Source of the DNA: a virus
Lineage: Duplodnaviria; Caudoviricetes
Length of the DNA: 64,000 nt
IMG/VR virus record: IMGVR_UViG_3300027996_003878
Reading direction: 5' to 3' (one strand)
Part shown: piece by piece, positions 19,587 to 38,567 of the stretch
Numbering within the stretch: position 1 is the first letter of the stretch
How the letters are laid out: each line of letters opens with the position of its first letter
Notes under the pieces: generated by a model
Told to the model about the DNA's origin: nothing
Databases searched by the model: none
What the model saw: the letters and a program-made list of their open reading frames with translations, nothing else
Position numbers and translations under genes: made by a program

Positions 19587-20864
19587 CTATTCAACAATTT
19601 CAACTTTACTAAGCAACCACTCCAATGTGGCCTGATCTTTCCATGCCGCTACCATCCCTACCAACCGACCACTACTTTGTAGTTGTTGAATAATAGCATT
19701 GGCATCTTGACCTGGATTATTCGATGCCAGCTGACTTTGCACAACTCGCATAATCTCTTCATCAGAAAATGAACAATCTGGCTCTCTATCTCGAATTGAA
19801 TCTAAAATTAAAGATAGCTTGACGCTCTTAACGGCATATTTATTTAAATTGACCCTGGTTTCTTCTGGAGCATTGCTCCAATCAACCCCACTTTGACGAG
19901 CCAATTGCTGAGCCTCCATTAGAGCCAGCCACGAAGGAACATCAATAGAATTCATCTCAACTAATTTATTTGTTAATTGCTGCAAGATAAGCTGCCTATA
20001 AGACTCCTGGCTCTTTTTTGCAGCTACTCCCTGCGCATTGTCCCTCAGTTGCTCAAAACTTTCAAAGTTAAGCTTTTTAGCAAGCTCATCATCTAATGCG
20101 CACGGGACATTCTTTATACCCATATGGAGATTGACTTTAAATGTCAAATTTTCAACATCTTCATCAAAAGTCAAATTCAACTCTTTATTGAAAACATCCC
20201 TAAACGATTCATTCAAAGGAATGTCAAATGATCGCTCTTCTCCGACTTCCATGCCGTAAAGGTTAACATCAAAATTTGGCAACCAATTTTGACCAACATC
20301 ATAAACAACGCCCTCTTTACTTAGCTCTTCAACAGATTCAGTTCCAGCCGTACATTGGACGTCAAAAGTAATCTTGTCACCTTCCTGGCAAAAATCACCA
20401 TCACCAAAAGGAACTACATCGCCGTGCTTAACTCTTAACTCTTGCAGCATGAGCTGCGCCATCTCAACGGCAGAAGAGGGCTGATGAGGTTTTGGTATTT
20501 TTATACCAACATAATCCACCAATTCAAAATCTGGCTTCTTTAAGAAAAACAAGTCACAATAAAAATTAGTACCATCAAGTGAAACATTATTTACCTGAGG
20601 GTAACCAATTGGCTTCATTTTAGTCTCGAACAAAACTTCATCGTAAGCCAGGGCGACTATTTCTTTAGTCATGACTTGCTCAATTTCGCGCTTCATCACT
20701 TGCTTTATAACCCTGTCAGGGGCTTTATTTTTTCGAAAGCCCTTGGCCTTAACACCGCGAAAACGCTCGACAGCTTCCTGTCTCTTTTCTCTAACGACGT
20801 CAACATCAGCGACGTATTCAACACTAATCTTGCAAGGCTCTACTTCTTTTATCTGAAAAGGCAA
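19587..20864 (-). CDS. tig: Trigger factor (ribosome-associated chaperone/PPIase)
   Basis: GFRKNKAP ribosome-binding motif, FKBP domain (GDKITFD..LYGMEVGE), C-terminal chaperone domain; probable TTG start at 20864 after GGGGTG SD. Confidence 0.92.
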   Translation of the reverse strand: MPFQIKEVEPCKISVEYVADVDVVREKRQEAVERFRGVKAKGFRKNKAPDRVIKQVMKREIEQVMTKEIVALAYDEVLFETKMKPIGYPQVNNVSLDGTNFYCDLFFLKKPDFELVDYVGIKIPKPHQPSSAVEMAQLMLQELRVKHGDVVPFGDGDFCQEGDKITFDVQCTAGTESVEELSKEGVVYDVGQNWLPNFDVNLYGMEVGEERSFDIPLNESFRDVFNKELNLTFDEDVENLTFKVNLHMGIKNVPCALDDELAKKLNFESFEQLRDNAQGVAAKKSQESYRQLILQQLTNKLVEMNSIDVPSWLALMEAQQLARQSGVDWSNAPEETRVNLNKYAVKSVKLSLILDSIRDREPDCSFSDEEIMRVVQSQLASNNPGQDANAIIQQLQSSGRLVGMVAAWKDQATLEWLLSKVEIVE

Positions 20865-20865
20865 C

Positions 20866-21696
20866 TCAATCACCCCAATCACTAACGCCAAACTTTATTA
20901 AGTTGGCTTCATTAATAAATTTACGACCAGAATCACACGATGATAAGAAATCACAAAACCCACATAATTTATTAGGGCTTGGCCTCCATAATTTTTCTTT
21001 ATTTATTTCGCCCGCATGGTGTAATAGCTTATCAGCCATCTTTAAGACTTCATCTCTAGAGAACTCTTTTGAGATCGCCTCGAAAGAGTGTCTCAACATA
21101 ATGTATGATGTTCTAACTCTGTCTATCGACGGATCCTCTAAACATATAACGTAAGCATAAACCAATAATTGAAAAAAATCTTTTTTAAGATATTTTTTAC
21201 TTTTTGATGTTTTGTAATCTGCAACATGAATTACACCATCACAATCTCGCTGAACAACGTCTATAAAGCCGTTTAATAAAATTTGATCATTTATATTAAT
21301 ATAAAAATCTTTTTCAACGCACAATACAGTCGGAAGTTGGCCTTTATTTTTATCCAACTGTATTTTTTTTAAATAATTATTACATATATCCCAAGCCTCT
21401 CTTTTTTGGGGCTCAGAGACATTGTACTCTTTTAATGCAGATAAAAAGCAATTTGACATCAAAAAATGATAAGGATCTTTATTCCCCTCAATAATTTGTT
21501 GATGAAAATCCTCTAAAATTTTATGACAGAACTTGCCAAAAACATGAAAATGCCACTCTTTTCTAGGTAACTTTTCAATATAAGAAAATCTATATTTAGC
21601 AGCGCAATCTTTGAATGTTTTTATTTTACTAGAAGATAAAGACAATAAATTACTTGTATTATCCTTATTAGGAAGAAACTCTTGCTTTAAAATCAT
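20866..21696 (-). CDS. PD-(D/E)XK RecB/Cas4-like exonuclease with four-Cys cluster
   Basis: LSSSKIKTFKDC, GFIDVV, VADYKT, QLLVY, LCGFCDFLSSC. Confidence 0.88.
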   Translation of the reverse strand: MILKQEFLPNKDNTSNLLSLSSSKIKTFKDCAAKYRFSYIEKLPRKEWHFHVFGKFCHKILEDFHQQIIEGNKDPYHFLMSNCFLSALKEYNVSEPQKREAWDICNNYLKKIQLDKNKGQLPTVLCVEKDFYININDQILLNGFIDVVQRDCDGVIHVADYKTSKSKKYLKKDFFQLLVYAYVICLEDPSIDRVRTSYIMLRHSFEAISKEFSRDEVLKMADKLLHHAGEINKEKLWRPSPNKLCGFCDFLSSCDSGRKFINEANLIKFGVSDWGD

Positions 21697-21699
21697 AAA

Positions 21700-22680
21700 C
21701 TAAGGCAGCCTTTGTCCTTTAAATGGAATCCATCGAAATACATTACGATCCCCACGCTTTCTCGATGAAAATACAATATTAAAAAGGCCCGGCGCTCTTG
21801 GGTTTGGTTTATATGGCTCTTTAGAAATAATCCACCTTAATGTGGCAGAATCATGGTAATAATAAGTAATGGTATGCTCTCTTGGATTATAATGAGCCCT
21901 TACAAAGCTACCGGTAGGGCCTAAAACTTGTGCATCTAGAAGAACTCCGTCCCTAACGATTTCAGGATTTTCCAAAGAAAAATAATTTCTATTTATCTGC
22001 AATATATCATCATCAAAAGGCTCTTTCGTATTGTCCTGATAAATAACTAAAGCTCTTGGATTGAAATATCTGCTATTTGCATCAGTAGATTCTGGGCCAT
22101 AATTTGGCTCAGGGACATGAATAGTAACCTCTGCGGGCAAAGTTCCTATCCCATGACCCCTTTCTCCTAGATAATCAGAGTCTGAAAATAATATTTCATA
22201 TTCATTTATTGGCTTGTCGGTATAATTTGCATACTCTCCCGTGCCTGAGCCGTCAAACCCATCCGGTATGCCTGGAACGTCCGGCCTATCAACTACATCG
22301 CCTCCAATATTTCCATATTGAACCTCAACAGAGGGAGAGGCATCTCCAAATGGATATAAATTAATAGTCTTATCAGAAATATTACTTCCAGTCACCTCAT
22401 CATGAGACTGCCTAAGTGGGACTATATTTGGGGCATATTCTTTGGTAACAATTGGAGAGCTATCTGTTCCGTCAGTAGCAAATATTTTTAATGTTACAGA
22501 GTTGACATTAGTGGGCATCTCTATCGGATTTAAATATAATGTAGAAGATGCAGATGGATCTGTACCATCAAGAGTATAAAATATTGAAGAAGGAATATTT
22601 GTAGTTATAGTTACGGTCTTAGGTATTCCAGATAAAAGCTGATCTGAACTATCCGTCACTGTTATTACTATTACCGCCAT
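21700..22680 (-). CDS. Hypothetical protein with Fn3-associated (chitobiase C-terminal-like) domain, putative virion protein
   Basis: IFYTLDGTDPS...LY..PI motif. Confidence 0.65.
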   Translation of the reverse strand: MAVIVITVTDSSDQLLSGIPKTVTITTNIPSSIFYTLDGTDPSASSTLYLNPIEMPTNVNSVTLKIFATDGTDSSPIVTKEYAPNIVPLRQSHDEVTGSNISDKTINLYPFGDASPSVEVQYGNIGGDVVDRPDVPGIPDGFDGSGTGEYANYTDKPINEYEILFSDSDYLGERGHGIGTLPAEVTIHVPEPNYGPESTDANSRYFNPRALVIYQDNTKEPFDDDILQINRNYFSLENPEIVRDGVLLDAQVLGPTGSFVRAHYNPREHTITYYYHDSATLRWIISKEPYKPNPRAPGLFNIVFSSRKRGDRNVFRWIPFKGQRLP

Positions 22681-22713
22681 ATAATCCTAAAATAAAAATC
22701 TATTAATATTTGA

Positions 22714-23049
22714 TTAAGTCAACTCTTTTTTACAAATAGAAAGAAACCTTGCATCTTTCTCTGCCTTATTTTGCCTAACCAGCTCACGATAGACGGCATG
22801 ACCCGCTCGTCTTAGTATCTTTGCAATGTCAAAATATACACCTTCACCAGTCCTACGAGCCAGCTTAAAGAAGCATTCCGAAAGCTCAAGTAATTCAACG
22901 TGCGGAGAGGCGCTTACCTCATCTGCCTTTCGAATAAATGCAAGGCCTACGACTTTTTTATAAAAAACATCGTCTCCGTGCTTTTTTAATGATTTCAAAT
23001 AAGAATTTAAAACCACATCTGAAAGTTTTTTTTGCATTGTTAAGCTCAT
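22714..23049 (-). CDS. Hypothetical protein
   Basis: 111-aa ATG ORF. Confidence 0.65.
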   Translation of the reverse strand: MSLTMQKKLSDVVLNSYLKSLKKHGDDVFYKKVVGLAFIRKADEVSASPHVELLELSECFFKLARRTGEGVYFDIAKILRRAGHAVYRELVRQNKAEKDARFLSICKKELT

Positions 23050-23100
23050 AAGTTCATTTAACTACAAGTAAATACAATAAAAACGATATATTAATATAAA

Positions 23101-25281
23101 CTACCAAGAAGAAACAAGCCTGCCCCTGGACCCTTCTTCTTCATCATGCTCAACTAATATTGCATTAGAAAATTTATCCTTTAGAGCATCATTATGAGTT
23201 ATTACAAATATCTTAAAATTATTTTGCCAGGATTTTATTACATCCGCAAAAGCGTCAACTCCCGCCTTATCAAGCGGCTGATCTACCTCATCTAACTCTA
23301 AAAACCGTATATCAACCCCTAATCGCTTTTGAATGATCAAAGAAAGCGCCAACTTCAAACTAAGAGATATAAATAGCTTTTGGCCGCCAGATAGTTGCTC
23401 ATAGTCGCGCTCAATACCGTTTATTCTATAAGCAATATCTAAAGTATCCTCTTCTTTTCCTTTTGCAGTGTCTTTAGCGACAACAAACCTAATCTCCAAA
23501 CCAGGGCGAAGTTGAGATAAAAGATTGTTAGTTTCAATTTGAATGTCATCTAATATAGTATATATAATCATTGTAGGAATGCCACGAGAACTAAACGCCC
23601 TACAAACATGCTTGTGAATCTTTAAATCTAGCTCTAGGGCCTTTTTGCTTTTATTTAATTTTTTTAATTCCTTCTCGTCACGCTCTCTTGAGGATATTTT
23701 TTCTGTGTAAATGCCTAAGTAAGTATTCAGGGAAGATATTTCCCTCAAAGACAGCTCAAGGCTATTCTCTTTTTCCAAAATAATTTCTTGAATCTTGTCC
23801 GCTTCACTTGAATGCTCGCTTCCTTTTGTACTATTAACCAAAGCGGCGATATCTGCCCGCTCTGACATCATTGCTTTTTTATCAACCGATGCATTTTTAA
23901 GATCAGACTTTAAATCAACTATAAGCTCTGATAACTGCTGGGAGTAATCTTGAGAGTTTTTTATTTCGTCTTTTGTCGCTTGAATTTTATTGAAAATTCC
24001 ATTTTTCTTGGAATTAATACTTTCTATATTCTTTATTTCTTGTTCAAGTGATTCTCTTTTAGACGTAACAACTTTTAACTTGTTGCTATTTTCAAATATC
24101 TTTGAATCTAAAGACTGTATCTCTTCAGCTATTTGTCTTAGGCATTCATTTTTATGCTCTTCCGTAAGGGGCTGCCGGCAATGAGGGCAAGAATCTTCAT
24201 CCGGCATAGGAAGCCTAAGCTCTTCAACTTTGGCTTCTAATGATCCAATATAAGCCCTTCCATTTATTTCATTTTTTATAGATTTTTTTAAAATCTCTTT
24301 TACATTATCTAAATCTCTCAACTCAACTAAATCAAGAGCCTTAAACTCTTCATTTAAAGAATTAAACTGATTAACCTTAACTCCCAAACCTTTAGTTAAA
24401 GACTGCAATTTACTTTCTTTTGAAGAAAGATTCGCCTCTAAAGAAGATATGTTAGAATTAACTCTACAAATCTTTTCATCTAAAGATTTTAGATTAGCTT
24501 TTAATTTTGGAAGATTACTGTCATCTTTCTGCTGTAGTGCGAATAACTTTTCCCTATATATTGATAAACTTTTTTGCAGACCATCCCGCTCTTCAATAAA
24601 ACTGTTCGTCTTTTCTTTAATTTCTTTTAGCTTAGAATTAAAATCATCAATATCTGACTTTGGATCTCCAATATTTAGTATCAAAGACTCAATGTTAGTC
24701 AATTTGTTAACCAAATCTGAAGTTTTCTTTTTTGCAATCTTTTCAAATTTAATATAATTATTTAAATTTAAAATCTCTTTAAGTATACCCTTTCTAGCCT
24801 CAGGAGAGGCCGAAGCCAGACCGCTTAAGTCCGATTGGGCAAACACAACAGAATTATGAAAAGTTTTATAATTTATTTTAATAATTTTATTAGACAGCTC
24901 ATTTTCTGTCTCTGTCGGTGTTTTTTGACTAATATCAACCCACTCTTCTTTATTTTTTTTATATAGCCTTAAATCTGATTTAGATGACTTTAAAGAGCGA
25001 GTTCGAACTACACGATAAATGTCCGAATTAACCTCAAATTCAAATTTGACCTTACAAAGATCACGGCCATCTCTCACAACCTTATCAATAGTCTTTGTTG
25101 GGTACTTGCCGAATAAAACATAATCTATTGCATGAAAAATAGTGCTTTTACCAACGCCATTTGATTCATTAGGATTATTCCTATTACGACCCACAATAAG
25201 AGTGCTTTCAAATGCATTACAGTCAATATCAGTTAAAGAATGACTCATAAAGTTTTCTATATAAATACGTAAGGGCTTCAT
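23101..25281 (-). CDS. sbcC: SbcC/Rad50/gp46-like SMC ATPase
   Basis: NGVGKST Walker A, CPHC zinc hook, LSGGQK signature, LDEVD Walker B. Confidence 0.93.
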   Translation of the reverse strand: MKPLRIYIENFMSHSLTDIDCNAFESTLIVGRNRNNPNESNGVGKSTIFHAIDYVLFGKYPTKTIDKVVRDGRDLCKVKFEFEVNSDIYRVVRTRSLKSSKSDLRLYKKNKEEWVDISQKTPTETENELSNKIIKINYKTFHNSVVFAQSDLSGLASASPEARKGILKEILNLNNYIKFEKIAKKKTSDLVNKLTNIESLILNIGDPKSDIDDFNSKLKEIKEKTNSFIEERDGLQKSLSIYREKLFALQQKDDSNLPKLKANLKSLDEKICRVNSNISSLEANLSSKESKLQSLTKGLGVKVNQFNSLNEEFKALDLVELRDLDNVKEILKKSIKNEINGRAYIGSLEAKVEELRLPMPDEDSCPHCRQPLTEEHKNECLRQIAEEIQSLDSKIFENSNKLKVVTSKRESLEQEIKNIESINSKKNGIFNKIQATKDEIKNSQDYSQQLSELIVDLKSDLKNASVDKKAMMSERADIAALVNSTKGSEHSSEADKIQEIILEKENSLELSLREISSLNTYLGIYTEKISSRERDEKELKKLNKSKKALELDLKIHKHVCRAFSSRGIPTMIIYTILDDIQIETNNLLSQLRPGLEIRFVVAKDTAKGKEEDTLDIAYRINGIERDYEQLSGGQKLFISLSLKLALSLIIQKRLGVDIRFLELDEVDQPLDKAGVDAFADVIKSWQNNFKIFVITHNDALKDKFSNAILVEHDEEEGSRGRLVSSW

Positions 25282-25285
25282 AAAA

Positions 25286-26494
25286 TCACCTTGTTATACT
25301 AGCTAAATATTGATCTACAATCTCATTAGATATTGAGATAAACTTTGATTTTTCTTTTTTACTTGATAGCTTTAGCTGATCATTTGCATATAACTTAATA
25401 GCAGTTCTTGGATCTATTGAATTATCTTTGACTGTTTGCTTTTCAAGAGGTACTACCAAAATATTCTTTGACTCAGAAAAGCTACATATATAATATACAC
25501 CTAACTCAATTAAACAATTTTCTATCTTTTTTCTATCAACATTTTTAGAAGAAGGATCTAATAGATGTAATTCAATTTTAACAATTGAATTTTTAAAAGA
25601 GTTTACTTTGTTTATTTCATTTATCTTATCTAATACAAATTCAGTAGGATCAAAGCCCTCCAAAACCTGTAAGGATAGTTTTCTAAGTGGCCTTGATGGA
25701 ACCTCAATCTCATTGAATTTACTATCATTTTCCGTGTCAAAATGAATCAATATTTTCTTATGATTCGTCTCTCCAAAATCCGACAAATCCATACTGCCAA
25801 TATGAGCAACATAAGGCTCCCTAGACCTCACCTGAGGTCTATGGACATGCCCCATCCATACATAATCATAATCTTTAAACATATTTACAGGGCACATTAA
25901 CTCATTTGCGTGACTGTCAATCTCATCGCCAACAAACAAAGAACCCTCTATAGCCAAGTGACCTATTAAAACTTTATCATTGTTAATAGGAATGCTAGAT
26001 GACTCATAAATCAACTGTTTATACAGAAAGCTCAAAGCGTCTACATTTTTATCTTTATCTAGGGATCTTCGATCTCTAAAAGGCATCATAGTAAATGAAA
26101 CACCATCTCTGTGAATTGTATTGATGTTTTTATAAACAAAAACATTGTCAAAATCAGCAGTTTCTATTAAATCAAGGGGAGAGCTGTAATTAGCGCCACT
26201 TCTTTTGATATCATGATTCCCAGCTATTACGTGAACCTCTATATTATTTACTTTACATCTTTTTAAGAATTTAAAAAATAAATCAACTAAAGCATAATGA
26301 GGCTTTACATCTTCCCAAATGTCACCTGTTAAGATAATTAGTTCTGCATCAACGCTTAGGCACTGATCAACAATCCAATCTAATAACTTAACTTGATCTA
26401 GAACTCTACTATTTAGCGCATTGCCTATGCCAGGCTTTCCAATATTCACACCTTTGCCTAAATGAACATCTCCAACAATTATACCAACAGTCAT
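25286..26494 (-). CDS. sbcD: SbcD/Mre11/gp47-like nuclease
   Basis: GDVHLG, GDIWE, GNHD, GHLA, GHVH motifs intact. Confidence 0.92.
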   Translation of the reverse strand: MTVGIIVGDVHLGKGVNIGKPGIGNALNSRVLDQVKLLDWIVDQCLSVDAELIILTGDIWEDVKPHYALVDLFFKFLKRCKVNNIEVHVIAGNHDIKRSGANYSSPLDLIETADFDNVFVYKNINTIHRDGVSFTMMPFRDRRSLDKDKNVDALSFLYKQLIYESSSIPINNDKVLIGHLAIEGSLFVGDEIDSHANELMCPVNMFKDYDYVWMGHVHRPQVRSREPYVAHIGSMDLSDFGETNHKKILIHFDTENDSKFNEIEVPSRPLRKLSLQVLEGFDPTEFVLDKINEINKVNSFKNSIVKIELHLLDPSSKNVDRKKIENCLIELGVYYICSFSESKNILVVPLEKQTVKDNSIDPRTAIKLYANDQLKLSSKKEKSKFISISNEIVDQYLASITR

Positions 26495-26504
26495 AATAAA
26501 TTCT

Positions 26505-27146
26505 CTACTTATCCTGATACAGTTCGATAAATTCTTTTAATTTATAAATTCTAGCCTCTAAGTCATTGCAATTTAATGAACTAAAGTTGAACGCACTTGA
26601 CATATAAACATCAAGGTTCCAATTTAAATTATTGATATATTCAAAAGCCTGATCTTTGCATTCATTTCTAATCAAAAAAGACCTTACACAATCAGCATAC
26701 TCAAATAATATTTTCTTTATCTCTGATAAGTCTACAACGTCAGTGCCATTAATTTCTTCTTTTTTAAAATTTACTGGTAGCAACTTCTTTGCTACATCTA
26801 TCTGGCTAACCCCCTCCATATAAGATATAAATTGAACCGCTCTTCCGCTTTTTTTACAGCCAAAACAGTAAAACCTATCTTCAGTATAGTTGAAGCCGAA
26901 TGAAGGCGTCGAATCATTGTGATCCTGAAAGGGGCACTGAATACAAGGAAGCCATCCGTTCAAATCACTTTCTAAATTAGAAATTAAATTATAATGTTTT
27001 AATATGGAATAGAGCGTAACTTTTTTGTTCGCCAAATTAATAATTTTATTATTTAATCCTCTAAATTTTTCATCGTATTCATCGAATCTTGGGTCATCTT
27101 CCCATCCAGAAGACTCTTTAGTACACTTATCTTGGCCGTATGACAT
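26505..27146 (-). CDS. Stand-alone CHC2 zinc-finger (DnaG zinc-binding domain) protein
   Basis: CPFQDHNDSTPSF...FYCFGCKKSG; start uncertain (overlaps the upstream ORF). Confidence 0.85.
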   Translation of the reverse strand: MSYGQDKCTKESSGWEDDPRFDEYDEKFRGLNNKIINLANKKVTLYSILKHYNLISNLESDLNGWLPCIQCPFQDHNDSTPSFGFNYTEDRFYCFGCKKSGRAVQFISYMEGVSQIDVAKKLLPVNFKKEEINGTDVVDLSEIKKILFEYADCVRSFLIRNECKDQAFEYINNLNWNLDVYMSSAFNFSSLNCNDLEARIYKLKEFIELYQDK

Positions 27147-27262
27147 GAAGTTGCAATAGGATCTGGAATGATATCAAAATGAGCGCATAGGCGTAAATAA
27201 TCACTATACACCTCCTTCTCGTAAGTAATTAGATCAAGAATTCTTGCCCTTGAAATATCCAT
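27053..27262 (-). CDS. Small hypothetical protein
   Basis: 69 aa; 94-bp overlap with the CHC2 ORF. Confidence 0.45.
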   Translation of the reverse strand: MDISRARILDLITYEKEVYSDYLRLCAHFDIIPDPIATSCHTAKISVLKSLLDGKMTQDSMNTMKNLED

Positions 27263-27267
27263 ACAAG

Positions 27268-27777
27268 TTATTGCTCACCGACACCGCTAGCATCGACGCT
27301 AGCATCAGTAGCTTGCTCAGAATTGCCACTCGACAATCTTAATTCTTTTTCCAACCTATCAACCTTGAAAGACAATTCATTATAATTGTCTCTAAAAATT
27401 ATTAAAGCCTTATAAAGCAAAGTAAGCAAACTAACAGAGCCCATGCCCTCTTGCTCATTTTCATCCGTATTGATGCTGATGGCAAAATTTATTAAGTCAC
27501 TTATAACTTCACGCTCAAGCTCAGAACTTATTGGTCCTTTATTTTGCTTTAGAGTAGTATCATTAATGACAGCCAAAAACTTCTTACCAAGCTCAAAAGC
27601 TAATTGCTGTCTATTTTGTGACTTTTCATGAAAATTTTTAACCTTCTCATCAAAGGCCTCTTTTTCCATAATTTTTTTCGCAAACTTAGACTTGCTTTTG
27701 TCTATTTTAAGAGGCCTAGTTGTTTCTTTAGGCTCCTCTGTACTATCAAAACTTATACGCGGCTCACTTGCTTTCAA
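27268..27777 (-). CDS. Hypothetical protein
   Basis: 169-aa ORF. Confidence 0.7.
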   Translation of the reverse strand: MKASEPRISFDSTEEPKETTRPLKIDKSKSKFAKKIMEKEAFDEKVKNFHEKSQNRQQLAFELGKKFLAVINDTTLKQNKGPISSELEREVISDLINFAISINTDENEQEGMGSVSLLTLLYKALIIFRDNYNELSFKVDRLEKELRLSSGNSEQATDASVDASGVGEQ

Positions 27778-29838: not shown

Positions 29839-29840
29839 AA

Positions 29841-30287
29841 TTAAACCTTTATAGCTACATCCGATAAGAGTATTCCCCTTGTGTGATCTAGCTCATGCTG
29901 ACAGCAAACAGCTGCCAGGCCCGTAACGATAAAATTAAAAGGAGGAACCAAATTATCTATAACATGTATTTCTCTATAACGCTTTGTCTTTACAATTTTA
30001 CCTGGAAAAGACAGACAGCCCTCTTCCTCGAACAAAGACTCATCATAAGCACTTGCTATACGACAATTAACAAGATCTATATTTATATTTAAATTACTAG
30101 TTGGAACCCTTACAATTGCCATTTTCTTAGGAATACCTATCTGTGGTGCGGCAAGGCCTATACCGGGCATTCCCATGTCAGCAGATCGCTGCAACTCATA
30201 CTCAAGTTTATCTCTTAAAGAACTAACTTCATCTAAAGTCACATCTTCACATTTTACCCTCAATAAGGACTCATCTGTAATTATCAT
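29841..30287 (-). CDS. def: Peptide deformylase
   Basis: GIGLAAPQIG, EGCLS, QHELDH. Confidence 0.95.
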   Translation of the reverse strand: MIITDESLLRVKCEDVTLDEVSSLRDKLEYELQRSADMGMPGIGLAAPQIGIPKKMAIVRVPTSNLNINIDLVNCRIASAYDESLFEEEGCLSFPGKIVKTKRYREIHVIDNLVPPFNFIVTGLAAVCCQHELDHTRGILLSDVAIKV

Positions 30288-30294
30288 ACTTAAA

Positions 30295-30852
30295 CTAACC
30301 AGTAGAGTCGCTCTTAGATATAATTGTAATTAAATTACGGCCATCCTGAGTAGGCGCACTCAGGATCACAAATTCTTCTATCAAATTTAAGAAATCTTCT
30401 AATCTCTTAAATCCTAATTTTTTTAAAGCTAACTCTCGTCCTTTGAACGTCACAGTGACCTTTACCCTGCACCCATCATCTAAAAATAACTTAGCCCTCT
30501 TCGCCTTGATTTTTAAATCATTACCATCAGTGCAAGGTCGAAATTTTACTTCCTTTAATTTTATTACACTTTCACGTTGCTTCTTTGAAAGAATTTTTTT
30601 CTTTTTAGAAAGATTATATTTATATTTGCCATAGTCCAAAATTTTACAAGCAGGAACATTCCACTCATTTGAAAATGAAATTTGTACCAAATCTAAATTT
30701 TCTTTATACGCTAAAGCTAAAGCATCTTTTGTCTCAACAACGCCAATATTATTATTGTTGCTATCAATACATAAAACTTTTTTAGAACGGATTTCCTCAT
30801 TAACACGCTCTCTAAAAGACTTACTCTTAGCCTTGTTTTTGTAACCTTTCAA
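30295..30852 (-). CDS. infC: Translation initiation factor IF-3 (TTG start)
   Basis: VNEEIR, LDLVQI, CKILDYGKYKY, KEVKFRP, KVTVTFKGRE; no Met codon in the ORF. Confidence 0.95.
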   Translation of the reverse strand: MKGYKNKAKSKSFRERVNEEIRSKKVLCIDSNNNNIGVVETKDALALAYKENLDLVQISFSNEWNVPACKILDYGKYKYNLSKKKKILSKKQRESVIKLKEVKFRPCTDGNDLKIKAKRAKLFLDDGCRVKVTVTFKGRELALKKLGFKRLEDFLNLIEEFVILSAPTQDGRNLITIISKSDSTG

Positions 30853-30853
30853 A

Positions 30854-31867
30854 TTAACAATTCTCCCTTAATTCAGAATAATTAAATTCTTTTTTATCAA
30901 ATTCCTTTATGTAACTTTCTAACTCTTTAAATGAAAGCTTCATTAAACCTTTTTCTTCTTTCGTTAACGCTTGTCTACTTTTTAATTTCATAATATTAAT
31001 TCCACCTTGCTTTGAGTAATATATTTTAAATAAATTATCGTTACTAAAATTTATATTTCCGCTTTTAACGTATAGATTATTACATTTATCTTTTTTAGCA
31101 GTAAACTTACTACACTCACTAAGCAATACTTCGCAAGTACTACTGCCGAAAGGAACGCTAAAGCTCAACAATGTAGGTCGCGCATAGTGCTGTTTAAAAT
31201 TATAACCAATGACAGGAAACCAATAAGTTGTTTTTACAATTGGTAGATTTTTACTACAAAATTTACAATTATCTCCCTCACAATAAAGCAGGCTCATCGA
31301 TGAGTCATGAATATCTTGATGATACTTTTCACACCAATATTCTCCAATCAATTTAAACCCAAGCTCTGTAGGAAATATACTATGGTTAGCGCTGGCGCAA
31401 TGAATGTGTAAAATACTTCTAGAAGATCTAAGAATGTAAGGGCCTAACTCCTCTATCGAGGACGAGCTATATATATGAGAACCCGCAGGTGGTATGAACG
31501 GCTCTGCTTCAAGCGCAACTTCATCTCCATAACGAAAAGCGCGAAACCCAACTTTACACGCTAGTAGTATTCTTAAAGGAGCCTTGCTAAGCCTTAGCCT
31601 CCATTTAGTCTTACCATCTATGCCAGAGCCATAAGTTGCCGTAGCAATGACTCTATCTTCATGTTGTTTTATTGGATTTCGCGCTATAATTATAGAGCTT
31701 CTATCATTTATAATACTAAATTCTTCTCCCAAAACAGGAGATAAAAGATTAATACATGTCCGATCTAGCTCTAGACGACCATCTGATTGCAAAGCTACAA
31801 CAGAAATATATCTTCTATGAAGATCTTTCTTAATAGCTGATATTACTACATCTTTATTCGGCAACAT
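30854..31867 (-). CDS. Hypothetical protein; possible AbrB-like N-terminus fused to a gp32-like Zn/OB module
   Basis: LQSDGRLEL; CEGDNCKFC...YWFPVIGY. Confidence 0.55.
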   Translation of the reverse strand: MLPNKDVVISAIKKDLHRRYISVVALQSDGRLELDRTCINLLSPVLGEEFSIINDRSSIIIARNPIKQHEDRVIATATYGSGIDGKTKWRLRLSKAPLRILLACKVGFRAFRYGDEVALEAEPFIPPAGSHIYSSSSIEELGPYILRSSRSILHIHCASANHSIFPTELGFKLIGEYWCEKYHQDIHDSSMSLLYCEGDNCKFCSKNLPIVKTTYWFPVIGYNFKQHYARPTLLSFSVPFGSSTCEVLLSECSKFTAKKDKCNNLYVKSGNINFSNDNLFKIYYSKQGGINIMKLKSRQALTKEEKGLMKLSFKELESYIKEFDKKEFNYSELRENC

Positions 31868-31900
31868 CAAATTTCTTACACATAACTTACAAATTATTGT

Positions 31901-32089
31901 TTAATCAAATATATTTATAACAACAACCTGATGCTCATCTTCTTCCAGTTGTCTTTTTTTCTTAATATTCTCTAATCTTTCTAATTCTTCTTTTGTTTCA
32001 GGTATATATCTCTCGATATACAAATACTCATATTGAAAATTATCTGATTTTTTCTGAGTCATGGTGTCCTTTTGTTTGAGGTTAAACAC
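31901..32089 (-). CDS. Small hypothetical protein
   Basis: 62-aa ORF; start uncertain. Confidence 0.55.
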   Translation of the reverse strand: MFNLKQKDTMTQKKSDNFQYEYLYIERYIPETKEELERLENIKKKRQLEEDEHQVVVINIFD

Positions 32090-32173
32090 TGCTCTTTCAA
32101 AATCTTAAATTGAAATAATCTTAAAATGCACATGATCGCACATCATAAAAATGCGAAAATATGCGCTCAAGCA

Positions 32174-33211
32174 TCAAAGGCCTACTTTAACTCCCGCCAA
32201 AACGCTAAATGATCCAGATGTATTGACTGAAACAGATGGCCCAACATAAACATTATCCATGAATGGAATATGCTTAGCTACATTGTAATTAACGGGACTT
32301 AATATCACTCCAAGCTTCTTATCTTGAGATTCAAAACCTAACCCAACGCCAAGAAAAGTCCATTTTGGATTAATCTTTGTTCTTCCATATGAAAAAATTG
32401 ACACTTGCAAGTTGGGCGTAACCTCGGCCTTTGGCGCTGGATTAACGTGAGCACCAGCGTCAACACCTAAGTAAACTCGGGGTGAAAGTCTAAATTCAGG
32501 ATCAGGGAAAGTTTCTAAAAATTTAGAATTAGTAATCTTTATAGGATGATCGTTACCATTTGCTTTTATAGAAAATTTATTATATACAATATGTTTTCCC
32601 TCAACATCATGACCTAAAACTGTAGTAAGAGAGTAAGATCTAGGATAAACCTCCAGATCCCAAGGCTTCTTTTTCCAAGATCGAAACTTAACACGACCAA
32701 AAGGCACAGACAAATCACCACCAAAAGGCTCACTCACCCTCAGAACCTGCACTGTAGATAAATAGCCAAATGGATCTGGGCAATCAAGCTTTGAGCCATC
32801 ATTGCATTTTACTTTATACGGCTTTGAGCTAGAGTCTTCAGACGAAGGATCTTCAGATGTACCAGAAACACCTCTACTTATAACGCCCGGAGTAACAACG
32901 CTCACATTATTAACACCAACCATTTTTGCATTTAAATCACTTAAATCTTTTATAATTTCTTTTAAATCAAGACCAACGTCTTTTGAGAATTTATTCAAAT
33001 CTTTTTTTGTAACAAGAGACGAGCTACTTCTTGTTACTTCATCACGCAAACGCTTCATTTCCAACAAAGATTGATTCAAATTATTTTCATATAAATATAA
33101 ATCATAATTTGTTTTAACCAAAAGCAATGCCAAGAAAAATATTACAAATATTGATATTACAAATTTAACTTTATCTGAAATAACGAATGTACTGCTTGAA
33201 TTATTACTCAT
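32174..33211 (-). CDS. Membrane-anchored protein with coiled coil and C-terminal amphipathic beta strands (spanin-like candidate)
   Basis: N-terminal TM (FVISIFVIFFLALLLV); ends SVLAGVKVGL. Confidence 0.6.
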   Translation of the reverse strand: MSNNSSSTFVISDKVKFVISIFVIFFLALLLVKTNYDLYLYENNLNQSLLEMKRLRDEVTRSSSSLVTKKDLNKFSKDVGLDLKEIIKDLSDLNAKMVGVNNVSVVTPGVISRGVSGTSEDPSSEDSSSKPYKVKCNDGSKLDCPDPFGYLSTVQVLRVSEPFGGDLSVPFGRVKFRSWKKKPWDLEVYPRSYSLTTVLGHDVEGKHIVYNKFSIKANGNDHPIKITNSKFLETFPDPEFRLSPRVYLGVDAGAHVNPAPKAEVTPNLQVSIFSYGRTKINPKWTFLGVGLGFESQDKKLGVILSPVNYNVAKHIPFMDNVYVGPSVSVNTSGSFSVLAGVKVGL

Positions 33212-33242
33212 ATTAATATTATATAACTATTTAGACGATTTT

Positions 33243-33788
33243 TTAAAAAGAACCAGTAGAACCAAATCCGCCCACACCACGACTTCCATTTCGAATACTT
33301 GAAAGACTATCAAAATCCGACCTGTTTATAATCTCACATCCCATTGTTTCTCTTTTTACAGGAATAAGTTGCGCAATTCGTTCGCCAAACAATATAGACT
33401 TAGTAGAATCATCATCACTCACATCAGGAATGTACTGACCTACGAAAAAGAACTGATTTTCATAGCTTTCGTCTATAACACCATAGAGTGCATGAATCTT
33501 TCTTTTAATCATAGTACTAGAGCGAGGGGTCAACTTTAACCACCAACCATCTGGACTAAAAGCCCTGAAACCTAAAGGTATTTTAACGTAAGAATAGGGC
33601 TTAAACTCTACCCCATTAGGTTCTGCACATCTAACATCATAACCAGTGGCTTGCGACTCGGATCTACAAGGCAAGAAACTGCTAGGACGTAAGGGCTCTA
33701 TATTAGGATGCCTTTCATTAAAGGCAATACAGCTAGACTCAAGGTTATCATTTAAAAGAAATTTAAAAACAGGAATATTATTTGACAT
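33243..33788 (-). CDS. dut: dUTPase (trimeric)
   Basis: GYDV, PRSS, GVIDESY, RIAQL, RGVGGFGSTG. Confidence 0.93.
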   Translation of the reverse strand: MSNNIPVFKFLLNDNLESSCIAFNERHPNIEPLRPSSFLPCRSESQATGYDVRCAEPNGVEFKPYSYVKIPLGFRAFSPDGWWLKLTPRSSTMIKRKIHALYGVIDESYENQFFFVGQYIPDVSDDDSTKSILFGERIAQLIPVKRETMGCEIINRSDFDSLSSIRNGSRGVGGFGSTGSF

Positions 33789-33825
33789 TTAACTCTCCAG
33801 GCTTTAACTACAAAGGGCCTGAATG

Positions 33826-34143
33826 TCATCGACCTAATTCAAATTTTTTTTTAGCAATTTTTTTCAACATTGCTAGTATTTTTTTAAATTCATTAAATTG
33901 ATATTTTGAATTTTTTCCATGACCATAAATATCATGAAATGTCATATGGCAATTTTTACAAAGAGTTACACCATTGTTGGTATTGAATCTTTTATCAATA
34001 TAAATATCCCAAGAATCTTTATGGTGGGCATGTATCTCTCCACCTGTTTTATTACATAACTGACACGTATAACTATCTCTTTCCTTAACCAGCTTCGACC
34101 ATTCTATATACTTTGGGTCATTAAATCTATTATAGTTAGACAT
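33826..34143 (-). CDS. HNH endonuclease
   Basis: CQLC..HAHH..NGVTLCKNCH. Confidence 0.85.
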   Translation of the reverse strand: MSNYNRFNDPKYIEWSKLVKERDSYTCQLCNKTGGEIHAHHKDSWDIYIDKRFNTNNGVTLCKNCHMTFHDIYGHGKNSKYQFNEFKKILAMLKKIAKKKFELGR

Positions 34144-34647
34144 TTAGTAATTAATATAATGACGCCAGTCATTATGTTTATTTTTAATTAAAATATGATC
34201 ATAAAACAATCTCGTCTTAGGTTTTTTTGGCTTTTTTATCAATTTAAACCCGACCTCTTGAAGCGTTTTATTTCCCTTTTTATTATTACAACCGGCACAA
34301 CATGCAACGCAATTATCCCAAGTAGTGCCGCCTCCTTTACATTTTGGTATAATATGATCTATCGTTAATCTTGTTTTATGAACCTTTCGATTGCAATACT
34401 GACACCTATAAGAATCGCGCATAAATAAAATATTTTTATTAAACCTTGACTCCTGCCTTCGATGATTCACACGGGATTTTAACCGCAGAACTGCCGGCAA
34501 ATTCATCGATCCAGAAGGCCAAAAAACCTGCTCATCCCAATTAGCAAGTATTTCAACCTTGTCTTTTAAAATAAATTTAAATATTTTTCTCTCAGAAATA
34601 AAAGATATACACTCATAAGTAGAATTCAAAAGCAAAGCAAAGAACAT
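34144..34647 (-). CDS. HNH endonuclease (McrA-like)
   Basis: CQYC..TIDHIIPKCKGG..WDNCVACC..CNNKKG. Confidence 0.9.
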   Translation of the reverse strand: MFFALLLNSTYECISFISERKIFKFILKDKVEILANWDEQVFWPSGSMNLPAVLRLKSRVNHRRQESRFNKNILFMRDSYRCQYCNRKVHKTRLTIDHIIPKCKGGGTTWDNCVACCAGCNNKKGNKTLQEVGFKLIKKPKKPKTRLFYDHILIKNKHNDWRHYINY

Positions 34648-34747
34648 ATATTTATAATAAAATAATCAAATAATATAGTAATATAATTTGTCAAAACAAC
34701 TATATAATACTAATCAATAAGCATTATTTTAGTTTTAGGCGGTGAAT

Positions 34748-35189
34748 ATGAAAATTAACAATATTACAAAGCTAGCAGATCAATTCTTACGAATTGCAAA
34801 ATCTGCATCGACTGAAGGCAAATACAAACACATCAACTTCGTGCCCCCTAAGTCTGTCGCAAAAGAGGCGGAGGAGGGTCTTAAATTACGCCAAATGGCC
34901 GGCGGAAAAGGCGGCCTGTCAGTAAGTCAGGCAAAAAAAGAAGGCGTTGGAAGCGGACCAGCGAGCTGTAAATTTAAAAAATAGAGACAAATTAAGCCCT
35001 AAGACTGTAAGAAGAATGAAGGCATTCTTTGACAGGCATCAAAAAAATAAAAAAATTGATAAAGGAAAAAAGCCACATGAAGATAGAGGATACGTAGCTC
35101 ACAAGTTATGGGGCGGTGATTCCGGGTACAGATGGGCAAAAAAAATAGTAAGACAAATGAACGCAGCTGACAATAAAGATAATAAATAA
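34748..35189 (+). pseudogene. Phage basic protein (PP..RA..L..RM..FF.RH..LWGG type) split by a frameshift near 34958
   Basis: ORFs 34742-34984 and 34947-35189 give consecutive halves of one motif string; 442 nt is not a multiple of 3. Confidence 0.75.
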
Positions 35190-35191
35190 TT

Positions 35192-36001
35192 ATGAATAAC
35201 GAAAACATAAATAAACTTGCTGACCTATTTTTTTTAAAAACAACAGCGAAGAAGAAAAAAAAGAAGAAGAACATACCAAAAAACAAAAAACTTTGGGAAA
35301 AGGCCAAGTCATTAGCTAAATCCAAATTTGATGTATACCCTAGCATCTACGCGAATGCTTGGGCTGCCAAATGGTACAAAAGTAAGGGCGGCGAATGGAA
35401 AAAAGGGTATGCGGCTGATGACGGCCTTGCGGCAGACGATTACCATACTAACGATCAACCACGAGGCCTCTACCAAGATAATAATGAAGTTTTTGAAAAC
35501 GATAAAGGCAAGCTAGAATCTCACGGAAAAGTATATTCTGACAGCGGGCTTGGCAGATGGTTTGCAGAAGAGTGGGTTAATATTGGAAAGAAAGAAAAAG
35601 GTAAGCACCCACCATGCGGCAGAGATGACGCAGATGAAGGAGGGTATCCAAAGTGCGTTCCAAAATCAAAAGCAAAAAAAATGTCTAAAAAACAAAAAGA
35701 ATCAGCTACGAGAAGAAAAAGAAAAGTAGAGCGATCTAAAAAGAGAAAAGATAAAAAGCCACATTTTGTAAGCACAAAAAAAGCTGGACAAGAAACAATA
35801 GTAAAAGAGCATAAAAATGCTGAAAAATCTTACATGTCAAAAAGAAACTTAGAGAGCATTCACAGATACAGTCGCAAACTTATGGAAATGCTTAACGAAA
35901 AAGATGATATGCCTGATTAGTGCGATGACAAACTCTCCGTCGCAAAAAGTCTACTTAGCGACGTTTATAATTATATAGCTAACGAAAAAAACATACGCTA
36001 A
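35192..36001 (+). pseudogene. DUF5872-like basic protein with an in-frame TAG at 35918-35920
   Basis: LWEKAK..YPSIYANAW, GLGRWFAEEW, YPKCVP; frame continues past the TAG (MPD*CDDKLSVAKSLLSDVYNYI) to TAA at 35999-36001. Confidence 0.7.
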
Positions 36002-36056
36002 ATATTAAATCAAAACAACTTTGGGCCTCTAATTGAATGATGAAGATAACTCAATT

Positions 36057-36200
36057 ATGTCATTAGCCTTCATGCTGCTTTGCTTGGGCTCAATAATCAT
36101 TGTAGCCGCTAGTATTATTGATGAAAAATGGTACCTAGTCGGACTATCGCCCGTGATATCTTCTTTTATCATAATGCTTCATATTTTATACAGAAAATAA
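36057..36200 (+). CDS. 47-aa membrane protein with two TM segments (not in the ORF track)
   Basis: MSLAFMLLCLGSIIIVAASIIDEKWYLVGLSPVISSFIIMLHILYRK; fills the intergenic gap. Confidence 0.55.
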   Translation: MSLAFMLLCLGSIIIVAASIIDEKWYLVGLSPVISSFIIMLHILYRK

Positions 36201-36201
36201 A

Positions 36202-36597
36202 CTAAAGATAACCCTCGCAGCACTTAACTTTCGCTAATAGCAAATCTATATTAAGAATGTAAATCTGCTCATTCAATCTAGCCAGCTCCTTAAAATTACC
36301 TTCTCTTTTTTTTTCTAAAACATGTCGCTCTTTAAGAATATTTAAATTGTAATCAATTTTTTTACCTTGCGAAAAGTCGCAAAGCTCGCGAAGTGATTCA
36401 ATTGGAAGTTTATCTGCCCAATCGAAATCACACCCTACAAAAGCCTTGCTGTTAAAATCGTCAACAATGACTTTGTCATATTTTTTCGCCTGTCTTTGCT
36501 TTTTCTTTAAAGCCTTTAGCTGAGATTTAATTGAGCATATGTCTCTATTTCTAAAGAAATAGCTCCTTACTTTTGATTTTTTATTTAGATCATTCAT
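36202..36597 (-). CDS. Hypothetical basic protein
   Basis: 131-aa ORF. Confidence 0.6.
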   Translation of the reverse strand: MNDLNKKSKVRSYFFRNRDICSIKSQLKALKKKQRQAKKYDKVIVDDFNSKAFVGCDFDWADKLPIESLRELCDFSQGKKIDYNLNILKERHVLEKKREGNFKELARLNEQIYILNIDLLLAKVKCCEGYL

Positions 36598-36992
36598 TTA
36601 CTTACAACTTCAAAGCCTAATTTGACCATAAACTCGGCCAACTGCCCCCTGTAATGTGTGTTATAAGATCTTTCCCATGAAACTAACGTGTCTCCATCAT
36701 TAAAAGGCAAAAGATCTACTATATTATCATTAGAGCTTTTTGACAATGAAGCCAATTCACTGTAACATAAGTCCAACTGCTCTTGATATTTAGAAACAAA
36801 ATATGACCCTGCCTGTTCAGGATCCTTCTTTACCATCTCATAATAACTATCTAAAAGATCACAAGAAGGGGTAAATGGCTCAAATAAATAATCAATATTT
36901 AAATTTTTAGACTTATCTCCATAATATACACCAATAACTCTACCCGGTCCAAAGTTATCTGGCTCTAATATTGACGCTAAGAACACTTTCAT
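36594..36992 (-). CDS. DUF488-like protein (divergent)
   Basis: FTPSCDLL..Y..KYQEQL..TLVSWE..HYRGQLA resembles APS.ell..Y..ql..LlC.E..CHR. Confidence 0.5.
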   Translation of the reverse strand: MKVFLASILEPDNFGPGRVIGVYYGDKSKNLNIDYLFEPFTPSCDLLDSYYEMVKKDPEQAGSYFVSKYQEQLDLCYSELASLSKSSNDNIVDLLPFNDGDTLVSWERSYNTHYRGQLAEFMVKLGFEVVSK

Positions 36993-37531
36993 TTTACTAT
37001 AATTTGATCTAAAACAAGAGGATGAGCGTCGGAAGAAACGTTTATAAAAAACTCTTTACTGAGAGCGGGTCGTTTTGTCGATCCTGGTTTATTTAAAACA
37101 ACCTTATACTTACCCTCACCAAGACCAACACTCCATTTGCCAGAAGAACTTGTCCTCGTCTTTTGAATTAAATTATTATCAGAATCAAAGATATGAATAT
37201 TAACCAGTATTACATTCTTATCGTCGCTATAAGTTATTTTCTGTTGAACTAAATATTTTTGAGCGCTATTTTTTTGATCATTCTCTGAATCACTATTATC
37301 AGAGACTATACCCCCCACGGGAGAGACCGACGGCTGAACGCTTGGTGTCGAAGCAGTTCGCTTTTGCACTTTTGAGCCAACTTCGACCGGAACTTTGCCG
37401 CCCTCCAGCTTAGATATTCTTTGAATAATTAATTTATTATTAAAATCAATATTTCTTATATACCCCAATATATTATCTAACTTACTTTCAATTTCAATAA
37501 GCACATCTGAGGCCATTCTTTTTTTATTCAT
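36989..37531 (-). CDS. Hypothetical protein with C-terminal carboxypeptidase-regulatory-like beta-sandwich
   Basis: IHIFDSDNNLIQKTRTSSSGKW..GKYKV. Confidence 0.65.
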   Translation of the reverse strand: MNKKRMASDVLIEIESKLDNILGYIRNIDFNNKLIIQRISKLEGGKVPVEVGSKVQKRTASTPSVQPSVSPVGGIVSDNSDSENDQKNSAQKYLVQQKITYSDDKNVILVNIHIFDSDNNLIQKTRTSSSGKWSVGLGEGKYKVVLNKPGSTKRPALSKEFFINVSSDAHPLVLDQIIVK

Positions 37532-38226
37532 AATGAAACACAAACACCAACCTTTAGCGGTAACCTCTTCATAACGACAAAATCACCCTGCTTCAGGCCC
37601 CCTTGATCTTTGAAGATAATACTTTCAATATAATTCTCTATGTCATCTATATTGTCAGATCCAAAAACTATTTGACCACGAATGGCGACAAAAAAATTAA
37701 AAGCAAAATAATTATGAGAAGACTCTTTCTCCGAAGAGCTAACCCATTTTCTAGAACCTACCTGTTCATCTTCCTTTGACTGAACATGATCAGGCTGTGT
37801 GTCAAATGAAACGGTCTCCTTATCGCTTGGTAAAGAGACTTCATCATAAAATATTTGATCTTCATTTACATCTATCTCAGCCTGCTCTCTTTGAGGCACC
37901 CAGGCGTGCTCCATACTGTTTCCACTTGCAACAAAATTACTTTTAGGAATATTTTTTTCCTCAAATGGGACGCTTGGAGGAGTCTTGCTTATAACATTCG
38001 GAATATTTTGTTTTAACATTTCTTTTGAATTAACAGATCTGCCTTGGCGATTGTTATTTCTATTTCTATTCGAATAAAAATGATCTGCTTCAGAAACCTG
38101 ACGAGGTCTAAGCGGCTCTACACCCAGTCGAACATATTCTGGCTGATATGGCTCTTCTTTAAGACCCATGTCTCTATGCTCTTGTCGAAGCGACCGAGTT
38201 TTATTTTTTATATAGTTATTTCCCAT
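37528..38226 (-). CDS. Hypothetical protein
   Basis: 232 aa; disordered middle region. Confidence 0.65.
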   Translation of the reverse strand: MGNNYIKNKTRSLRQEHRDMGLKEEPYQPEYVRLGVEPLRPRQVSEADHFYSNRNRNNNRQGRSVNSKEMLKQNIPNVISKTPPSVPFEEKNIPKSNFVASGNSMEHAWVPQREQAEIDVNEDQIFYDEVSLPSDKETVSFDTQPDHVQSKEDEQVGSRKWVSSSEKESSHNYFAFNFFVAIRGQIVFGSDNIDDIENYIESIIFKDQGGLKQGDFVVMKRLPLKVGVCVSL

Positions 38227-38231
38227 TATGA

Positions 38232-38567
38232 TTACGAATTACTAAAATTCGCCTGCCTTTTAAGCCTATCTTCCATCTTTTTTCTCAGCTTTTCCTCTTT
38301 CTTACGCTGCTTTTTACCCCACTCACCCGATTTAACCTGAGCAGCTCGAAGATCCATAATTCTTTTACGCTCTTGCTGTTCTCTAAATTTTCTTCTCTTT
38401 TTAGCAGAAGGCTTTTCGTAACTCTGCCTGTCTCTAACTTGATTTATAATTTTTTCTTTTTGAACTATAGTTCTGAATTGCCTCATGGCATCCTCAGAAC
38501 GATCTTTATAAATCTTTACCTCAACACATTTGAACGTATCAAGATAGCTATCATCAAATTTATCCAT
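38232..38567 (-). CDS. rpsU: Ribosomal protein bS21 with terminal extensions
   Basis: VEVK..EDAMRQFR..VRDRQSYEKPSAKKRRK. Confidence 0.88.
   Translation of the reverse strand: MDKFDDSYLDTFKCVEVKIYKDRSEDAMRQFRTIVQKEKIINQVRDRQSYEKPSAKKRRKFREQQERKRIMDLRAAQVKSGEWGKKQRKKEEKLRKKMEDRLKRQANFSNS

What the first reader, a model, noticed from the sequence alone, without database searches (positions are those of the whole stretch)
19587..38567. Translation-initiation and nascent-chain processing kit: IF-3, bS21, peptide deformylase, trigger factor (plus DnaJ, ClpP, thioredoxin)
Seen: intact infC, def, tig and rpsU, each lacking its bacterial operon partners (no rpmI/rplT, fmt or clpX). Established: IF-3 and bS21 act in 30S initiation and SD selection; PDF and trigger factor dock at the ribosomal exit tunnel. 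bS21, IF-3 and def have each been reported in large phages, and trigger factor seems less usual. Inference: the element could take over both the entry and the exit of the host ribosome and so favour its own mRNAs and proteins.
Basis: partly seen in the sequence, partly recalled or inferred. Interest (0 to 1): 0.65.

Follow-up and report, generated by a model that had tools for sequence, protein, structure and literature searches.

The report
Jumbo phage ribosome-exit protein maturation genes
A widespread family of giant bacterial viruses keeps its own copies of the proteins that trim and fold a new protein as it leaves the ribosome, including the chaperone trigger factor, which I could not find described for any virus; most likely this adds capacity during infection rather than selecting the virus's own messages.

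Summary
The genes are real and intact: tig, def, infC and rpsU (plus trxA, dnaJ, clpP), none with its bacterial operon partner. The window belongs to a ~296 kb marine tailed phage (terminase and portal follow directly) that matches the Judaphage clade by synteny. They are not one kit: four genes spread over 19 kb of replication genes, and only infC-def are adjacent.

Across 42 relatives picked on trigger factor, bS21 is in 42, PDF in 41 and IF-3 in 28; trigger factor is also in 13 of 14 records picked on capsid or terminase. All four are under purifying selection.

Best reading: added, non-selective N-terminal processing and folding capacity on host ribosomes. Preference for phage mRNAs is unsupported; there is no expression data. 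IF-3, bS21 and PDF are known in huge phages. The scan had not noted this on other DNA.

The parts
19587..20864 (-). Trigger factor (tig), about 425 aa; longest ORF runs to 20891. Three domains, ribosome-binding motif GFRKNKAP, eroded PPIase pocket
   Evidence: Pfam; NCBIfam; AlphaFold pLDDT 95.8; Foldseek best hit E. coli TF 1w26 E 2.7e-20; alignments
29841..30287 (-). Peptide deformylase (def), 148 aa; motifs GIGLAAPQ, EGCLS, HELDH intact; ends 13 residues after HELDH, so no alpha-3 docking helix and no SEC-C tail
30295..30852 (-). Initiation factor IF-3 (infC), 185 aa, TTG start, 7 bp upstream of def
38232..38567 (-). Ribosomal protein bS21 (rpsU), 111 aa, with a basic C-terminal extension of about 40 residues
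29303..29608 (-). Thioredoxin (WCQPC), two genes downstream of def
10124..11080 (-). DnaJ co-chaperone (J domain with HPD, zinc region, C domain); no DnaK in 16 relatives, so it would use the host's
49204..49857 (-). ClpP protease subunit; present in 14 of 16 relatives, often as two tandem copies
15435..18998 (-). Context: DNA polymerase III alpha (DnaE), two small genes downstream of tig in most relatives inspected
20866..27146 (-). Context: conserved block upstream of tig (PD-(D/E)xK nuclease, Fn3-like protein, SbcC, SbcD, primase zinc domain)

Best explanation
Judaphage-type jumbo phages carry an old, vertically inherited set of ribosome-associated factors that adds capacity to the host ribosome during infection. 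SHOWN: the genes, their folds or catalytic motifs, their near-universal presence in the clade and purifying selection. FROM KNOWN BIOCHEMISTRY: PDF removes the formyl group, MetAP then removes Met, and trigger factor docks on uL23 and holds the emerging chain before hand-off to DnaJ/DnaK. INFERRED: the phage makes these so that the burst of phage protein synthesis is not limited by host factors; they act on any nascent chain, and the benefit goes to the phage because its mRNAs dominate. In most relatives the SEC-C zinc motif serves as a substitute ribosome tether for PDF; this genome's PDF has lost it and works untethered or weakly bound, like other short viral PDFs. Trigger factor works as a holdase with little or no prolyl isomerase activity. 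bS21 (core) and IF-1/IF-3 (accessory) support initiation on leaders with weak SD signals.
For: Phage identity: TerL and portal follow the window on a contig 99.99% identical to it. About 100 trigger factors at 32-46% identity, then a gap to others at 24-28%; they form one branch (SH-aLRT 99) apart from the bacterial-type ones. bS21 42/42, PDF 41/42, IF-3 28/42; MetAP 18/22 and 11/12 near-complete, above the TIGR00500 cut-off in the three tested, metal ligands intact in 17/18. Records picked on capsid or terminase and long enough to reach the site carry tig in 9/9 and 4/5, the miss being borderline in length. dN/dS 0.02-0.2 for all four genes. Motif G 175/175, R 171/175, G[FY]RxGK in 123/175. 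SEC-C on 34/41 PDFs; the top such Atlas clusters are at least 95% viral among members with a record; the SecA motif alone co-sediments with ribosomes and binds near uL23, with weak affinity (PMC6620043). Order of PDF, MAP, TF action and dispensability of the PPIase domain: PMC8185961. Some short viral PDFs are active in vivo (PMC5591237).
Against: No expression, binding or activity data. The genes are scattered (MetAP is about 140-180 kb from tig in relatives), so co-regulation is not shown. MetAP was not located in this genome. This genome's trigger factor has Asn for the motif's second Gly (13/175 share it) and its PDF has no known tether. Two of four short viral PDFs failed to complement E. 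coli in PMC5591237. No GroEL or DnaK in the relatives searched. The host is unknown (best bacterial IF-3 identity 46%, mixed phyla).
Confidence: 0.55

Rival explanations
1. Selective takeover: phage bS21 and IF-3 replace host copies so that ribosomes prefer phage mRNAs, and phage trigger factor plus SEC-C-tethered PDF crowd host TF, SRP and SecA off uL23, steering processing to phage proteins and disturbing host protein export.
For: bS21 is in every relative and has long basic N- and/or C-terminal extensions with conserved motifs. SEC-C mimics the SecA ribosome-binding module and TF, SRP and SecA share uL23. Substitution of phage bS21 into host ribosomes has been proposed for Bacteroidetes phages (PMC9723584). 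Earlier unchecked scan notes report leaderless early genes and an anti-SD RNA elsewhere in this genome (leads only).
Against: No distinctive leader signal in the window: SD core 14/65, no excess of start codons just after a -10 box. IF-3 is absent from 5/12 near-complete genomes. SEC-C was lost in at least two branches, including this one. PDF has loose substrate specificity.
Confidence: 0.2
2. Not one system: each gene has its own job away from the tunnel. Trigger factor acts as a soluble assembly chaperone for the replisome or virion, PDF and MetAP as free enzymes, and the genes only look like a pathway because large phages keep many host-like genes.
For: tig sits fixed between a nuclease and DnaE in the replication block. 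The PPIase pocket is eroded. The invariant bacterial Pro ending the motif varies (P 72, T 49, S 38 of 175). This genome's PDF has no tether. One relative keeps a MetAP with its ligands replaced.
Against: The ribosome-binding loop is one of the best conserved parts of the phage trigger factors; most PDFs carry a ribosome-binding module; TF, IF-3 and MetAP trees show the same subgroups, and among 50,697 INPHARED records only 9 had weak (22-26%) tig matches.
Confidence: 0.2
3. The contig is cellular DNA, or the genes are decayed recent pick-ups from a host.
For: The window itself holds many host-like genes (DnaE, RecA-like, TopA, ClpP, HU) and none annotated as a virion gene; tig and def fall below their NCBIfam equivalog cut-offs.
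Against: TerL and portal on the continuing contig; a syntenic relative has terminase, portal, capsid and sheath; complete terminal-repeat genomes of 428 and 452 kb carry the same genes; no close bacterial relatives; dN/dS at most 0.2.
Confidence: 0.02

Closest known systems
Judaphage clade of huge phages (Al-Shayeb et al. 2020, PMC7162821), e.g. SR-VP_PHAGE_40_16
   Same: Same gene order SbcC, Fn3-like, PD-(D/E)xK, trigger factor, two small genes, DnaE, with PDF and S21 upstream and MetAP far away; automatic annotations in the supplement name all four. The paper names IF1, IF3, S21 and PDF as translation-redirecting genes.
   Different: The main text does not mention trigger factor, aminopeptidase or nascent-chain folding. 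This genome's assemblies are about 296 kb against 400-480 kb, marine, and its PDF lacks SEC-C.
Bacterial exit-tunnel pathway PDF, MAP, trigger factor (E. coli; PMC8185961; PDB 1w26, 6j45)
   Same: Same three factors, same trigger factor fold (Foldseek E 2.7e-20), catalytic motifs kept in PDF and MetAP.
   Different: 21% identity; PPIase pocket eroded; PDF has no alpha-3 helix and mostly carries SEC-C; no def-fmt, tig-clpP-clpX or infC-rpmI-rplT operons; infC starts at ATG/TTG/GTG, not the autoregulatory AUU of E. coli (own knowledge).
Short viral PDFs: Vibrio phage Vp16 (5mtc) and cyanophage S-SSM7 (3uwa) (PMC5591237, PMC3660681)
   Same: Catalytic core without the ribosome-binding helix; second and fifth best PDB hits.
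   Different: This PDF keeps the short eta-3 segment; its clade's usual form has a SEC-C tail, for which a paper search returned no relevant paper.
bS21-encoding Bacteroidetes phages (Chen et al. 2022, PMC9723584)
   Same: Phage bS21 conserved across a clade of large phages.
   Different: There bS21 lies in the head-gene region and resembles host bS21; here it lies about 39 kb from the terminase among replication-side genes and is 110-130 aa with long extensions.
SecA C-terminal metal-binding domain (SEC-C, PF02810; PMC6620043)
   Same: CxCx8CC-type motif with conserved lysines; binds 70S ribosomes near uL23 and SecB.
   Different: Fused to PDF, not SecA; absent from this window; binding of the phage version is untested.

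Membership tests
Trigger factor | N, FKBP-type PPIase and C domains in the TF fold | tested here: met
   Pfam; model pLDDT 95.8, pTM 0.82; top Foldseek hits are all TFs
Trigger factor | Ribosome-binding signature GFRxGxxP | tested here: inconclusive
   Window has GFRKNKAP: FRK kept, second Gly is Asn; clade keeps G[FY]RxGK in 123/175
Trigger factor | Intact PPIase active site | tested here: inconclusive
   Against E. coli: F198 and F233 kept; F168, F177, F185 are Val, F217 Leu, Y221 Phe; the Y221 column is a gap in 98/175. Residue roles are from my own knowledge; activity not tested
Trigger factor | NCBIfam equivalog cut-off TIGR00115 | tested here: not met
   170.6 vs 180.2 bits over model positions 2-410 of 410; divergent orthologue
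Trigger factor | Binds uL23 and nascent chains | not testable with these tools
   needs co-sedimentation or cryo-EM
Peptide deformylase | Motifs I, II, III | tested here: met
   GIGLAAPQ, EGCLS, HELDH
Type 1B (E. coli-like) ribosome-docking PDF | C-terminal alpha-3 helix binding uL22 | tested here: not met
   Protein ends 13 residues after HELDH; helix role from PMC12690207 and PMC5591237
IF-3 | N and C domains, TIGR00168 cut-off | tested here: met
bS21 | PF01165 and TIGR00030 cut-offs | tested here: met
   37.1 vs 27 and 35.5 vs 28.95 bits; Atlas neighbours are viral S21 clusters
Type I MetAP (relatives) | TIGR00500 cut-off and metal ligands | tested here: met
   213-232 bits vs 171.35; ligands intact in 17/18
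Complete PDF-MetAP-TF set in this genome | A map gene on the window's own contig | tested here: inconclusive
   Not in the window; expected about 120 kb or more beyond its start; not identified; contig not searchable
Judaphage clade | Shared core gene order and orthologous trigger factor with a named member | tested here: met
   N-terminal 77 aa vs clade profile E 2e-18, 35% identity, against 1e-9, 19% for an outgroup TF
Judaphage clade | Placement in the terminase or capsid tree used to define the clade | not tested
   reference sequences not available by reference
Bacteroidetes bS21 phages (Chen 2022) | bS21 within the terminase-portal-capsid region | tested here: not met
   rpsU at 38.2 kb; TerL lies just beyond window position 1

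The most novel reading that the evidence does not exclude
This clade encodes a complete ribosome-exit pathway of its own (PDF tethered by a SecA-derived zinc motif, MetAP, trigger factor) plus an extended bS21, and uses it to occupy the uL23 site and the 30S platform, excluding host TF, SRP and SecA so that infected ribosomes are converted to phage service at both ends.
Probability: 0.2. Interest if true: 0.85.

Novelty: new variant of a known kind. Interest (0 to 1): 0.6.

Why it matters
Translation genes in huge phages are usually described as a scattered inventory. Here a whole clade holds trigger factor, PDF, MetAP and bS21 as near-core genes, which says that co-translational maturation is limiting or contested during infection. 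The proteins are small and testable in E. coli mutants. The natural series of PDFs with and without SEC-C, and MetAPs with and without ligands, gives a direct test of whether the SecA zinc motif is a portable ribosome tether and whether MetAP has a non-catalytic role at the tunnel.

Tried and rejected
No whole genome held; ENA and NCBI contigs not searchable. No RNA holder listed, which says nothing on expression. Finding this genome's MetAP: two homologue searches, one representative search and two cluster look-ups showed no hit with a 295,897 or 296,223 bp contig; only top hits are listed, so this is not absence. Two origins of IF-3: it falls in two groups (next to def, or 14-34 kb away) but one clade is not rejected, p-AU 0.72. 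Host from IF-3: no signal. Leaderless starts in the window or in relatives' tig regions: no peak. Promoter and terminator counts near shuffle levels; no tRNA, Rfam hit or meaningful repeat. The SEC-C loss is not a frameshift: the next ORF starts 2 bp after the stop and is unrelated. Trees are quick-mode with SH-aLRT only. Literature: searches for trigger factor with huge, jumbo or mega phage gave no relevant paper; the jumbo-phage review PMC7824862 mentions IF3 and DnaJ but not trigger factor; subscription journals are mostly not searched. No complex prediction was run: TF-uL23 is a textbook pair and the host is unknown.
Full report
OBSERVATION. infC and rpsU pass their NCBIfam cut-offs; tig (170.6 vs 180.2) and def (87.4 vs 103.95) fall short as divergent orthologues. 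Thioredoxin is two genes after def; dnaJ and clpP are outside the stated range. No operon partner is adjacent. The word kit overstates the layout: tig to def is 8.95 kb, infC to rpsU 7.4 kb, with SbcCD, a primase zinc domain, dUTPase and HNH genes between; only infC-def touch.

WHAT THE ELEMENT IS. The window matches ENA ERZ4199535 NODE_4 (295,897 bp). A JGI contig 99.99% identical to window 1-10859 continues into a large terminase and a portal protein. An IMG/VR relative is collinear with the first 22.7 kb and carries terminase, portal, major head and tail sheath. The runs that hold at least half of the sampled words are seawater, marine or estuary metagenomes. The gene order around tig is that of SR-VP_PHAGE_40_16, classed as Judaphage in the supplement of PMC7162821; I did not place it in the marker trees. 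The host is unknown.

TRIGGER FACTOR. About 100 homologues at 32-46% identity are followed by a gap to others at 24-28%. In a quick tree the 41 phage rows form one branch (SH-aLRT 99); three other viral TFs sit apart. The gene lies between a PD-(D/E)xK nuclease and DnaE in all lineages inspected. Because those records were picked on tig, I also picked records on capsid and on terminase: those long enough to reach the site have tig in 9 of 9 and 4 of 5, the miss having only about 25 kb on that side. The model is confident (pLDDT 95.8) and matches E. coli TF best. The ribosome-binding loop is conserved (G 175/175, R 171/175), here GFRKNKAP. The isomerase pocket has lost several aromatic residues, which fits a holdase, as that domain is dispensable for chaperoning (PMC8185961).

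THE REST OF THE SET. In 42 records: bS21 42, PDF 41, IF-3 28 (one of them partial); in the 12 near-complete ones 12, 12 and 7. These records are not independent; some are near-copies. An M24 peptidase is in 18 of 22 large records and 11 of 12 near-complete; it is a type I MetAP with intact ligands in 17 of 18, lying about 140-180 kb from tig. IF-1 is in 4 of 5, ClpP in 14 of 16; DnaK 0 of 16, GroEL, ClpX and L20 0 of 5 each. dN/dS between close relatives is 0.02-0.2 for tig, def, infC and rpsU (simple counting, several pairs near saturation, the window itself not in a pair). IF-3 and MetAP trees repeat the TF subgroups, which points to vertical descent. I could not locate MetAP in this genome.

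PDF. The window's enzyme has the three motifs and stops 13 residues after HELDH, so it lacks the helix by which E. coli PDF binds uL22. Of 41 relatives, 34 continue into a SEC-C zinc motif. The seven without it, and the window, fall in two branches of the TF tree, while the earliest-branching row has it, so two losses is the simplest reading (inference from a quick, midpoint-rooted tree). The SecA version of this motif co-sediments with ribosomes near uL23, weakly (PMC6620043). The top Atlas clusters with this fusion are at least 95% viral among members with a record; a paper search found no description. I infer a substitute tether.

ENTRY SIDE. bS21 is 110-130 aa with basic extensions at one or both ends. 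The window's genes use SD weakly (14 of 65 vs 9% background) and show no leaderless signature. Earlier notes on this genome mention leaderless early genes and an anti-SD RNA outside the window; I could not check those loci. Nothing here shows selectivity, and IF-3 is dispensable in the clade.

MECHANISM AND RIVALS. Most likely (0.55) the phage adds non-selective initiation, N-terminal processing and folding capacity to host ribosomes. Selective takeover (0.2) and independent off-ribosome roles (0.2) remain open; a cellular or decayed origin is excluded (0.02). Gene identity, distribution and selection are shown; docking, activity, timing and benefit are inferred.

NOVELTY. IF1, IF3, S21 and PDF in huge phages are published. 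Trigger factor and MetAP appear as automatic labels in that paper's GenBank supplement but not in its main text, and five searches found no paper on phage trigger factor. Verdict: new variant of a known kind; interest 0.6, resting on the clade-wide PDF-MetAP-TF set and the PDF-SEC-C fusion, both seen fully only in relatives.

Noticed in passing
L282:1225-1974 (+), IMGVR_UViG_3300036770_007539: MetAP homologue with six of seven checked active-site and metal-ligand residues replaced but full length kept; a pseudo-enzyme, recalling eukaryotic Ebp1/Arx1 that bind the tunnel exit (own knowledge). It is in the window's own TF subgroup.
   Followed up: partly
L097-L123, relatives' infC loci: IF-3 comes in two sequence groups: one mostly right next to def (as in the window), one 14-34 kb away; one origin is not rejected.
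   Followed up: yes
window 9000-9791 and 26505-27146: Primase split into catalytic core and zinc domain 17 kb apart; relatives have the separate zinc-domain gene beside SbcD too.
   Followed up: partly
window 43067-43285 and 43318-43968 (+): A cysteine-synthase-like PLP enzyme appears split over two frames; pseudogene or assembly error.
   Followed up: no
window 34742-34984 and 34947-35189 (+): Two overlapping short basic ORFs on the opposite strand that read like one gene broken by a frameshift, followed by a basic 242 aa ORF.
   Followed up: no
G005, G013, G015, G017, G018, G022, G024: Two tandem clpP genes in one subgroup, as in bacteria with ClpP1/ClpP2; no ClpX found in the five genomes searched.
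   Followed up: no
L009:1404-2573 (-); G015 67398-68252: EF-Tu in one relative, about 7 kb from tig, and a 705 aa translational GTPase in another; patchy.
   Followed up: no
P0015, P0031, P0051 (alignment A1): Some phage trigger factors have a 30-40 residue lysine-rich insertion right inside the ribosome-binding loop.
   Followed up: no
L091, L094, L096: A second, separate group of viral trigger factors, about 25% identical to this clade; other huge-phage genomes in the 2020 supplement also have TF labels.
   Followed up: partly
window 45578-47176, 47240-48250, 50747-51073, 52560-52871, 1759-2520: A 532 aa zinc-ribbon protein with no NCBIfam or PHROG hit, a short FtsK-like ATPase, two HU-like proteins and a CCA/poly(A) polymerase head domain.
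   Followed up: no
window's own assemblies: Longest contigs are 295,897 and 296,223 bp, which may mean a complete genome of about 296 kb, much smaller than the 400-480 kb relatives.
   Followed up: no
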